Shown here: positions 5,680 to 8,379 of the stretch, in pieces
Position numbering within the stretch: the stretch's first letter is position 1
How the letters are laid out: every line of letters begins with the position of its first letter
NCBI RefSeq assembly: GCF_016903815.1
Contig: NZ_CP069973.1
From: Escherichia coli
Lineage (GTDB): Bacteria; Pseudomonadota; Gammaproteobacteria; Enterobacterales; Enterobacteriaceae
DNA length: 64,000 nucleotides
Direction: 5' to 3' (one strand)
Position numbers: made by a program

Positions 5680-8379
5680 TGATGCAAACCAGCCCGCTGT
5701 TAACACAGCTTATGGAAGCACTGCGCTGCCTGCCGGGCGTTGGCCCGAAGTCGGCGCAGCGTATGGCGTTCACGCTGCTTCAGCGCGATCGTAGCGGCGG
5801 GATGCGTCTGGCGCAGGCGCTCACCCGGGCGATGTCGGAAATCGGCCACTGCGCCGATTGCCGCACTTTCACCGAACAGGAAGTCTGTAACATCTGTTCG
5901 AATCCGCGTCGTCAGGAAAACGGTCAAATCTGCGTGGTGGAGAGTCCGGCGGACATCTACGCCATTGAGCAGACGGGGCAGTTTTCAGGCCGTTATTTTG
6001 TGTTGATGGGGCACCTGTCACCGCTGGACGGCATCGGTCCGGATGATATCGGGCTTGATCGTCTGGAACAGCGTCTGGCAGAGGAAAAAATCACTGAAGT
6101 GATCCTCGCCACCAACCCCACGGTTGAAGGTGAAGCTACCGCTAACTACATTGCCGAGCTTTGCGCGCAATATGACGTGGAAGCCAGCCGAATCGCTCAT
6201 GGCGTACCGGTTGGCGGCGAACTGGAAATGGTCGATGGCACCACGCTGTCACACTCCCTTGCCGGGCGTCATAAGATTCGTTTTTAAGCAAACGAGAGCA
6301 GGATCACCTGCTCTCGCTTGAAATTATTCCCCCTTGTCCCCATCTCTCCCACATCCTGTTTTTAACCTTAAAATGGCATTATTGAGGTAGACCTACATGA
6401 AAGGACAAGAAACTCGTGGTTTTCAGTCAGAAGTGAAACAGCTTCTGCACCTGATGATCCATTCTCTCTATTCCAATAAAGAAATCTTCCTGCGTGAGCT
6501 TATCTCTAACGCCTCCGATGCGGCGGACAAGCTGCGTTTCCGCGCGCTCTCTAACCCGGACCTGTACGAAGGTGATGGCGAACTGCGCGTTCGTGTCTCT
6601 TTCGATAAAGACAAGCGCACGCTGACCATCTCCGATAACGGCGTGGGGATGACCCGCGACGAAGTGATTGACCATCTGGGGACTATCGCTAAATCCGGCA
6701 CCAAATCATTCCTCGAATCCCTGGGTTCTGACCAGGCGAAAGACAGCCAGCTGATCGGTCAGTTTGGTGTTGGTTTCTACTCTGCTTTTATCGTGGCTGA
6801 CAAAGTGACCGTGCGTACTCGCGCGGCAGGCGAAAAACCAGAAAACGGCGTCTTCTGGGAATCGGCTGGCGAAGGTGAATACACCGTTGCCGACATCACT
6901 AAAGAAGATCGTGGTACTGAAATCACCCTGCATCTGCGTGAAGGCGAAGACGAGTTCCTCGATGACTGGCGTGTGCGTTCCATCATCAGCAAATATTCCG
7001 ACCATATCGCGCTGCCGGTAGAGATCGAAAAACGTGAAGAGAAAGACGGCGAAACCGTTATCTCCTGGGAGAAAATCAACAAAGCGCAGGCGCTGTGGAC
7101 TCGTAACAAGTCGGAAATCACCGATGAAGAGTACAAAGAGTTCTACAAACACATCGCCCACGACTTTAACGATCCGCTGACCTGGAGCCACAACCGCGTT
7201 GAAGGTAAGCAGGAGTACACCAGCCTGCTGTACATCCCGTCCCAGGCTCCGTGGGATATGTGGAACCGTGATCATAAACACGGCCTGAAACTGTATGTTC
7301 AGCGTGTGTTCATCATGGACGACGCAGAACAGTTCATGCCGAACTATCTGCGCTTCGTGCGTGGTCTGATTGACTCCAGCGATCTGCCGCTGAACGTTTC
7401 CCGTGAAATCCTCCAGGACAGTACGGTAACGCGTAACCTGCGCAATGCGCTGACCAAGCGTGTGCTGCAAATGCTGGAAAAACTGGCGAAAGACGACGCG
7501 GAAAAATACCAGACCTTCTGGCAACAGTTTGGCCTGGTACTGAAAGAAGGTCCGGCGGAAGATTTCGCTAACCAGGAAGCGATCGCCAAACTGCTGCGTT
7601 TTGCGTCTACTCATACCGATTCTTCTGCGCAGACCGTGTCTCTGGAAGACTACGTTTCCCGCATGAAAGAAGGGCAGGAGAAAATCTACTACATCACCGC
7701 AGACAGCTATGCGGCAGCGAAGAGCAGCCCGCACCTGGAACTGCTGCGTAAGAAAGGCATCGAAGTTCTGCTGCTTTCCGACCGCATCGATGAGTGGATG
7801 ATGAACTATCTGACTGAGTTCGACGGTAAACCGTTCCAGTCGGTGTCTAAAGTTGACGAGTCGCTGGAAAAACTGGCTGACGAAGTTGATGAGAGCGCGA
7901 AAGAAGCGGAGAAAGCACTGACTCCGTTCATCGACCGTGTGAAAGCCCTGCTCGGCGAGCGCGTGAAAGATGTCCGTCTGACTCACCGTCTGACCGATAC
8001 GCCAGCGATTGTCTCTACCGATGCGGACGAAATGAGCACTCAGATGGCGAAACTGTTTGCCGCAGCGGGCCAGAAAGTGCCGGAAGTGAAATACATCTTC
8101 GAACTGAACCCGGATCACGTACTGGTGAAACGTGCGGCAGATACTGAAGATGAAGCGAAGTTCAGCGAGTGGGTAGAACTGCTGCTGGATCAGGCGCTGC
8201 TGGCAGAACGCGGCACGCTGGAAGATCCGAACCTGTTTATTCGTCGTATGAACCAGCTGCTGGTTTCCTGATGTAATGCCGGATGACCTTCGTGTCATCC
8301 GGCATTTTTCTTTTCATTATCTGCACTTTCCGCAAATTATCTCGCCATTAACCGTTTCAGCCCCTGGTGCCTTTCTTGA

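What the first reader, a model, noticed from the sequence alone, without database searches (positions are those of the whole stretch)
6311..6345. sigma32-type promoter upstream of htpG
CTTGAAA and CCCCATCT with 14 bp spacing upstream of htpG fit heat-shock promoter consensus. Expected for this gene; noted for completeness.
Basis: partly seen in the sequence, partly recalled or inferred. Interest (0 to 1): 0.2.

Follow-up and report, generated by a model that had tools for sequence, protein, structure and literature searches.

The report
Known heat-shock promoter of htpG
This is the well-known heat-shock (sigma-32) promoter in front of the E. coli chaperone gene htpG; it is real and strongly conserved, but it is textbook knowledge rather than a discovery.

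Summary
CTTGAAA (6317-6323), a 14-nt spacer and CCCCATCT (6338-6345) lie 51 nt upstream of the htpG start codon (6397). This is the only perfect match to the sigma-32 consensus in the 64-kb window, where about 0.002 are expected by chance.

The window is E. coli chromosome (apt-dnaX-ybaB-recR-htpG-adk-hemH). It is identical to K-12 across the promoter except for one spacer SNP.

Published K-12 data fit the motif:
- Transcription starts map to window 6352-6353, 7 nt after the -10 element.
- Sigma-32 is the only sigma factor bound there in ChIP-chip.
- ChIP-exo finds a single predominant RpoH site at htpG.
- A PhtpG-lacZ fusion is a standard sigma-32 reporter.

In 118 other Enterobacterales species, an unanchored alignment shows four near-invariant islands (-35, -10, start-site A, Shine-Dalgarno). 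The spacer between them diverges freely.

One extra detail: a structurally conserved hairpin (6289-6320) that ends the recR transcript overlaps the -35 element. The mapped recR 3' end falls at 6319.

The parts
5682..6287 (+). recR coding sequence (upstream gene, last gene of the ybaB-recR unit)
   Evidence: ORF. Annotated recR in a 100%-identical E. coli genome.
6289..6320 (+). Stem-loop at the recR 3' end. Core stem is 6293-6302 paired with 6307-6316, loop 6303-6306. Three outer pairs join CAA (6289-6291) to TTG (6318-6320), so the base of the stem uses the TTG of the -35 element.
   Evidence: RNA fold gives -20.9 kcal/mol, z = -6.1, and 0 of 200 shuffles fold as well. A hairpin with MFE <= -15 kcal/mol sits at this position in 79 of 117 Enterobacterales. 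Compensatory pair changes are seen, e.g. GC/AT/CG at single stem positions.
6319..6319 (+). Mapped 3' end of the recR mRNA in K-12, transferred to window coordinates
   Evidence: Term-seq 'primary' recR 3' end at U00096.3 495042 (Adams et al. 2021, PMC7815308 supplementary file 1). The listed 61-nt sequence runs from -50 to +10 around the end; I checked this format against the chiX row of the same passage.
6317..6323 (+). -35 element CTTGAAA (positions -36 to -30 relative to the start site at 6353)
   Evidence: Each base is shared by 94-99% of sequences in an unanchored MAFFT alignment of the window with 117 other Enterobacterales species.
6324..6337 (+). 14-nt spacer with no sequence constraint. 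Contains the only difference from K-12 (C at 6330, T in K-12).
   Evidence: SNP. Column identity is only 12-70% across species, and spacer length is 14 nt in 78 and 13 nt in 41 of the 119 sequences scanned.
6338..6345 (+). -10 element CCCCATCT (positions -15 to -8)
   Evidence: CCCCA is 93-99% conserved, the T at 6343 77%, the N position 45%, and the final T 91%.
6352..6353 (+). Transcription start site (A at 6353; C at 6352 in one data set)
   Evidence: Published K-12 TSSs at 494300 and at -45. The coordinate mapping was verified by exact matches of published TSS-flanking sequences. A6353 is conserved in 93% of species.
6353..6396 (+). 44-nt htpG 5' UTR with Shine-Dalgarno TTGAGGT at 6382-6388
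   Evidence: The Shine-Dalgarno island is 90-100% conserved. The UTR has no significant structure (z = +1.05) and no credible Rfam match (one hit at E = 0.97, 18 bits against a 100-bit threshold).
6397..8271 (+). htpG coding sequence (Hsp90-family chaperone, 624 aa)
   Evidence: ORF. RefSeq annotation 'molecular chaperone HtpG' (WP_000678201.1) in an identical genome.

Best explanation
Positions 6317-6345 are the sigma-32 (RpoH) heat-shock promoter of htpG in an E. coli chromosome. RNA polymerase carrying sigma-32 recognises CTTGAAA (-35) and CCCCATCT (-10), which are 14 nt apart. It starts transcription at A6353 and makes an mRNA with a 44-nt unstructured leader and a strong Shine-Dalgarno site. 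Because sigma-32 levels and activity rise on heat or protein-folding stress, htpG output follows that signal. The match to the consensus, its position, its conservation and its identity with the K-12 promoter are shown here. The start site and sigma-32 occupancy come from published K-12 experiments. That this particular strain behaves the same way is inferred, since it differs only by one SNP in the unconstrained spacer. The promoter is packed against the 3'-end hairpin of the upstream ybaB-recR transcript. That transcript ends inside the -35 element, so htpG is probably transcribed mainly from its own promoter.
For: 1. The motif matches the consensus perfectly and is unique in the window. The consensus itself is as cited.
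2. The window is E. coli. The query (window 6150-6550) matches strain 7/2 at 100% and is present in 5,424 of 5,426 complete genomes (5,423 covering at least 80% of it). The downstream gene is annotated htpG.
3. Window 6260-6420 is identical to a K-12-type O16:H48 genome except for one spacer SNP.
4. Published TSSs at window 6353 (29 reads, sigma binding 'H' only) and 6352 (1 nt from RegulonDB htpGp1) lie 6-7 nt after the -10 element. Of five published TSSs near htpG, only this one has a correctly placed sigma-32 motif: 0 mismatches against 6 or more for the others.
5. ChIP-exo finds a single predominant RpoH site at htpG.
6. [quoted passage not shown]
7. Phylogenetic footprint. All 119 sequences with enough upstream DNA (the window plus 118 other Enterobacterales species) have the motif with 2 or fewer mismatches (72 perfect, 39 with one, 8 with two) and a 13-14 nt spacer. 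Only 12 of 2,380 shuffled controls reach 2 or fewer mismatches. An alignment not anchored on the motif still shows the -35, -10, start site and Shine-Dalgarno as near-invariant islands in a divergent background.
8. Shewanella oneidensis htpG carries CTTGAAA-N13-CCCCATTT as its genome's top-scoring sigma-32 site.
Against: Nothing substantive. Four caveats apply:
- No experiment was done on this strain; the start site and sigma-32 binding are transferred from K-12.
- One TSS list (Kim et al. 2012) does not report the 494300 start and shows only weak starts inside recR.
- Cho et al. also list minor starts at window 6389, 5871 and 5885 under the same sigma-32 ChIP peak. None has a sigma-32 motif.
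- The primary mapping papers (Cowing 1985, Nonaka 2006) could not be read here.
Confidence: 0.97

Rival explanations
1. It is a housekeeping sigma-70 promoter, or a promoter used about equally by sigma-70 and sigma-32. On this reading, TTGAAA serves as a near-consensus sigma-70 -35 hexamer.
For: TTGAAA matches TTGACA at 5 of 6 positions. From general knowledge (Wade et al. 2006, not read here), many sigma-32 promoters are also recognised by sigma-70.
Against: The sigma-70 scan finds no promoter-like site anywhere in 5600-6800. The hexamer 17 nt downstream of TTGAAA is CATCTC, which matches TATAAT at 2 of 6 positions (read). ChIP-chip lists only 'H' bound at this TSS, not 'D'. What is conserved across species is CCCCAT, not a TATAAT-like hexamer.
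Confidence: 0.03
2. The conserved bases belong only to the recR terminator or 3'-end hairpin, and their resemblance to a promoter is incidental.
For: The stem-loop 6289-6320 is strong and structurally conserved. It overlaps CTTG of the -35 element, and the recR 3' end maps at 6319.
Against: The hairpin stem varies in sequence and keeps only its pairing, whereas CTTGAAA is invariant in sequence, including the AAA that lies outside the stem. CCCCATNT and the start-site A lie 18-34 nt beyond the mapped RNA 3' end yet are just as conserved. The TSS and sigma-32 binding map here. The two functions overlap rather than compete.
Confidence: 0.01
3. It is a chance occurrence of the two motifs with no function.
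For: None beyond the general point that consensus matches can arise by chance.
Against: There were 0 matches in 100 shuffles and about 0.002 are expected per window. The motif is present at the same place in all 119 sequences scanned, whereas about 0.5% of shuffled controls reach 2 or fewer mismatches.
Confidence: 0

Closest known systems
E. coli K-12 htpG heat-shock promoter (RegulonDB htpGp1; the 'C62.5' promoter of Cowing et al. 1985, cited from memory)
   Same: Same locus and same gene order (recR-htpG). The -35, -10, start-site region, leader and Shine-Dalgarno are identical, and the spacer length is the same 14 nt. K-12 TSS and sigma-32 binding data map onto it directly.
   Different: One base in the spacer differs: C at window 6330 versus T in K-12. 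That stretch is not conserved between species, so no functional difference is expected; this is an inference.
Gammaproteobacterial sigma-32 promoter class (e.g. dnaK, groES, grpE, clpB, hslV promoters)
   Same: The bipartite CTTGAAA / CCCCATNT architecture with a 13-15 nt spacer, placed within about 100 nt of the start codon of a chaperone or protease gene.
   Different: None in kind. This is one of the closest matches to the consensus, with 14 of 14 specified bases.
Overlapping terminator-promoter junctions in compact bacterial intergenic regions
   Same: The upstream transcript's 3' hairpin and mapped 3' end (6319) overlap the -35 element of the next gene's promoter.
   Different: The tail after the stem (GCUUGAAAUUAUU) is not a canonical U-tract, and the terminator scan did not call it. 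Whether it is a true intrinsic terminator or a hairpin-protected processed end is not settled.

Membership tests
sigma-32 (RpoH) dependent promoter | -35 element matching CTTGAAA | tested here: met
   7 of 7 bases at 6317-6323.
sigma-32 (RpoH) dependent promoter | -10 element matching CCCCATNT | tested here: met
   CCCCATCT at 6338-6345, 7 of 7 specified bases.
sigma-32 (RpoH) dependent promoter | Spacer of 13-15 nt (up to 17) between the two elements | tested here: met
   14 nt in the window. Other Enterobacterales use 13 or 14 nt. Allowed ranges are as cited.
sigma-32 (RpoH) dependent promoter | Transcription start a few nt downstream of the -10 element | tested here: met
   Published K-12 TSSs map to window 6352-6353, 6-7 nt after CCCCATCT. 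The coordinate transfer was verified by sequence. This was not measured in this strain.
sigma-32 (RpoH) dependent promoter | Occupied by sigma-32 in vivo | not testable with these tools
   Literature on K-12 only. ChIP-chip shows 'H' as the only sigma factor bound. ChIP-exo shows a single predominant RpoH site at htpG.
sigma-32 (RpoH) dependent promoter | Heat-inducible, rpoH-dependent transcription | not testable with these tools
   Literature only. [quoted passage not shown]
sigma-32 (RpoH) dependent promoter | Drives a heat-shock regulon gene and is conserved with it | tested here: met
   The downstream gene is htpG. The motif is present upstream of htpG in all 119 sequences scanned.
Rho-independent (intrinsic) terminator, for the overlapping recR hairpin | Stable GC-rich stem-loop | tested here: met
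   -20.9 kcal/mol, z = -6.1, with compensatory changes across species.
Rho-independent (intrinsic) terminator, for the overlapping recR hairpin | U-rich tract immediately after the stem | tested here: not met
   The tail is GCUUGAAAUUAUU. The terminator scan (at least 5 T in 8) does not report it.
Rho-independent (intrinsic) terminator, for the overlapping recR hairpin | RNA 3' end mapped just after the stem | tested here: met
   The published Term-seq primary 3' end of recR corresponds to window 6319. This is K-12 data transferred by sequence identity.

The most novel reading that the evidence does not exclude
The conserved overlap between the recR 3'-end hairpin and the -35 element could be a functional coupling rather than mere compaction. 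The stem's base pairs CAA with the TTG of CTTGAAA, and the recR RNA ends inside the -35 element. The hairpin might insulate htpG from ybaB-recR read-through. Alternatively, read-through transcription or hairpin formation might modulate sigma-32 access to the -35 element. The evidence here shows the overlap and its conservation, but not any regulatory effect.
Probability: 0.12. Interest if true: 0.3.

Novelty: already known. Interest (0 to 1): 0.08.

Why it matters
It matters little as a discovery. The htpG promoter is one of the founding examples of the sigma-32 consensus and is routinely used as a reporter of the heat-shock response. The value of the check is that it confirms the first-stage reader can recognise a genuine alternative-sigma promoter from sequence alone. 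It also gives a clean, base-resolved annotation of this intergenic region: recR 3' hairpin and RNA end, -35, -10, start site, leader and Shine-Dalgarno. Finally, it documents a very sharp phylogenetic footprint across Enterobacterales.

Tried and rejected
- Primary papers: Cowing 1985, Nonaka 2006 and Thomason 2015 are not held. The ChIP-exo paper has no supplement held. Its main text was still useful.
- Text searches for 'htpGp' and 'htpG promoter' gave mostly irrelevant papers.
- The Kim et al. 2012 TSS list lacks the sigma-32 start and shows only weak starts inside recR. I used it only to verify the coordinate mapping.
- Sigma-70 promoter reading: no sigma-70-like site was found in 5600-6800, so I rejected it.
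- RNA thermometer or structured leader in the htpG 5' UTR: the fold is no better than shuffles (z = +1.05), so I rejected it.
- Known RNA family in 6000-6700: the only hit is meaningless (sau-63, 18 bits against a 100-bit threshold, E = 0.97).
- Minor published TSSs (window 5871, 5885, 6093, 6389): each was tested for a correctly placed sigma-32 motif. All have 6 or more mismatches out of 14, so they are not additional consensus sigma-32 promoters.

Full report
**Observation.** The sequence at 6311-6353 reads CTCTCG CTTGAAA ttattcccccttgt CCCCATCT ctcccacA.
- CTTGAAA occupies 6317-6323, the spacer is exactly 14 nt (6324-6337), and CCCCATCT occupies 6338-6345.
These belong to the 3' arm of an upstream hairpin.
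- The pattern CTTGAAA-N12-16-CCCCATNT occurs once in the 64-kb window on both strands, and in none of 100 dinucleotide-preserving shuffles. A simple calculation gives about 0.002 expected matches.
- Relaxing to 2 mismatches adds only one site, on the minus strand at 58977-58950. It lies just upstream of an ORF beginning [16 protein letters not shown].

**Context.** The query (window 6150-6550) is 100% identical to E. coli strain 7/2 and is found in 5,424 of 5,426 complete E. coli genomes, 5,423 of them covering at least 80% of it.
- The annotated gene order there is apt-dnaX-ybaB-recR-htpG-adk-hemH.
- In window coordinates, recR is 5682-6287 and htpG is 6397-8271.
- Compared with a K-12-type O16:H48 genome, positions 6260-6420 are identical except for one base in the spacer: C at 6330 versus T.

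**Match to the known consensus.** The sigma-32 consensus is quoted as CTTGAAA-13/15 bp-CCCCAT (PMC3168786) and as CTTGAA-N13-17-CCCCATNT (PMC4263515). The window matches all 14 specified bases at an allowed spacing.

**Mapped start sites.**
- Cho et al. 2014 (PMC3923258, Table S6) list a TSS at NC_000913.2 position 494300 on the + strand. It has 29 reads, sigma-factor binding 'H' only, binding+motif 'H', and transcription unit htpG (column headers).
- With htpG starting at 494344, this start is 44 nt upstream of the ATG, which is window 6353.
- I verified the coordinate transfer (window = NC_000913.2 minus 487,947). It reproduces exactly the 51-nt flanking sequences that Kim et al. 2012 give for two other TSSs.
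- Mendoza-Vargas et al. 2009 (PMC2760140) list a 454-sequenced TSS at -45, window 6352, which is 1 nt from RegulonDB's htpGp1.
- The start is therefore 6-7 nt downstream of CCCCATCT. This places TTGAAA at -35 to -30 and CCCCATCT at -15 to -8.
- Of five published TSSs in the recR-htpG region, only this one has a correctly placed sigma-32 motif: 0 mismatches against 6 or more for the others.

[quoted passage not shown] **Conservation.** A degenerate pattern for the first 22 codons of htpG retrieved 120 loci from one-genome-per-species Enterobacterales.
- 119 sequences had enough upstream DNA: the window plus 118 of those species. All carry the motif with 2 or fewer mismatches: 72 perfect, 39 with one, 8 with two.
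- The spacer is 14 nt in 78 sequences and 13 nt in 41. The motif usually lies 45-62 nt from the ATG.
- In 2,380 shuffled controls, only 12 reached 2 or fewer mismatches.
- Anchoring on the motif is circular, so I also aligned -150 to +30 with MAFFT without reference to it. Four near-invariant islands stand out:
  - 6317-6323 (94-99% identity to the window base)
  - 6338-6345 (CCCCA 93-99%, T 77%, N position 45%, T 91%)
  - the start region 6350-6355 (A6353 93%)
  - the Shine-Dalgarno TTGAGGT at 6382-6388 (90-100%)
- The spacer is only 12-70% identical.
- This is a classical footprint of a functional bipartite promoter. It also suggests that the K-12 versus window spacer SNP is neutral, which is an inference.

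**Rivals.**
- A sigma-70 reading is weak. No sigma-70-like site is found in 5600-6800. The hexamer 17 nt after TTGAAA is CATCTC. ChIP-chip shows 'H' and not 'D' at this TSS.
- Chance is excluded by uniqueness and conservation.
- The leader (6353-6396) shows no significant structure (z = +1.05), and no credible Rfam family matches 6000-6700. There is therefore no sign of an RNA thermometer or riboswitch layered on the promoter.

**An overlapping element.** Immediately after the recR stop codon (6285-6287) lies a strong stem-loop.
- The core stem is 6293-6302 paired with 6307-6316. Three outer pairs join CAA (6289-6291) to TTG (6318-6320). The fold is -20.9 kcal/mol with z = -6.1.
- Its 3' side runs into the -35 element.
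- A hairpin with MFE of -15 kcal/mol or lower sits at this position in 79 of 117 species. It nearly always ends between -1 and +3 relative to the C of CTTGAAA.
- Among 33 distinct sequences with the same geometry, stem positions show compensatory changes. One pair is GC 28 / AT 4 / CG 1; another is AT 20 / GC 10 / GT 3; another is GC 16 / AT 12.
- Term-seq data (Adams et al. 2021, PMC7815308) list a 'primary' recR 3' end at U00096.3 495042. The sequence column spans -50 to +10, a format I checked against the chiX row of the same passage. This places the end at window 6319, inside CTTGAAA.
- The tail after the stem is not a canonical U-tract, and the terminator scan does not call it. It may be a non-canonical terminator or a hairpin-protected processed end.
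- Either way, the end of the ybaB-recR transcript and the start of the htpG promoter physically overlap.

**Comparison with what is known, and verdict.** This is the same object as the K-12 htpG sigma-32 promoter, one of the promoters from which the heat-shock consensus was originally derived (Cowing et al. 1985, cited from memory; that paper could not be read here).
- Every sequence-testable defining feature of a sigma-32 promoter is met.
- In vivo occupancy and heat inducibility rest on published K-12 experiments.
- The finding is correct, already known, and of low interest.
- The only mildly new item is the conserved hairpin/-35 overlap. It is documented here, but no regulatory role has been shown for it.

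Noticed in passing
window 6289-6320 (3' end at 6319): A structurally conserved stem-loop follows the recR stop codon and overlaps the -35 element of the htpG promoter. It folds at -20.9 kcal/mol and shows compensatory changes across Enterobacterales. The published recR mRNA 3' end maps inside CTTGAAA. The tail is not a canonical U-tract.
   Followed up: partly
window 58977-58950, minus strand: This is the only other sigma-32-like motif in the window with 2 or fewer mismatches: GTTGAAG-N13-CCCCATGT. It ends about 33 nt upstream of an ATG at 58917 that opens an ORF beginning [17 protein letters not shown] recognise that from memory as ybbN/cnoX, a reported sigma-32 regulon member. Cho et al. 2014 list a ybbN TSS with sigma 'H' binding only. 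I did not check that this TSS corresponds exactly to the motif.
   Followed up: partly
locus L123 (E. coli SA186, NZ_CP022730.1) 3219-4319; equivalent to about window 6367: In this clinical isolate an ISApl1 (IS30-family) element sits between the sigma-32 promoter and the htpG start codon, interrupting the 5' UTR. This presumably uncouples htpG from its heat-shock promoter.
   Followed up: partly
window 5871, 5885, 6093, 6389: Published low-count TSSs lie inside recR and 8 nt upstream of the htpG ATG (Kim 2012, Cho 2014). Three of the four (5871, 5885, 6389) are listed by Cho et al. under the sigma-32 ChIP peak. None of the four has a sigma-32 consensus (6 or more mismatches out of 14). They may be the 'multiple RpoH promoters' earlier reported for htpG, which ChIP-exo did not confirm, or they may be processing products.
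   Followed up: partly
window 6353 to about 58943: The distance between the htpG start site and the putative ybbN start is about 52.6 kb in the window, against about 23.4 kb between the corresponding K-12 TSSs (494300 and 517671). This suggests about 29 kb of extra DNA relative to K-12 somewhere in this interval. I did not examine it.
   Followed up: no
loci L007, L008, L039, L078, L089, L122 (Enterobacter sp. Ag1, Klebsiella sp. BIGb0407, Cedecea neteri and relatives): A subgroup of species has a variant -10 element, TACCATAT instead of CCCCATNT. It comes with a 13-nt spacer of nearly identical sequence (aggcacaaatcgc). This is a lineage-specific departure from the otherwise invariant CCCC.
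   Followed up: no
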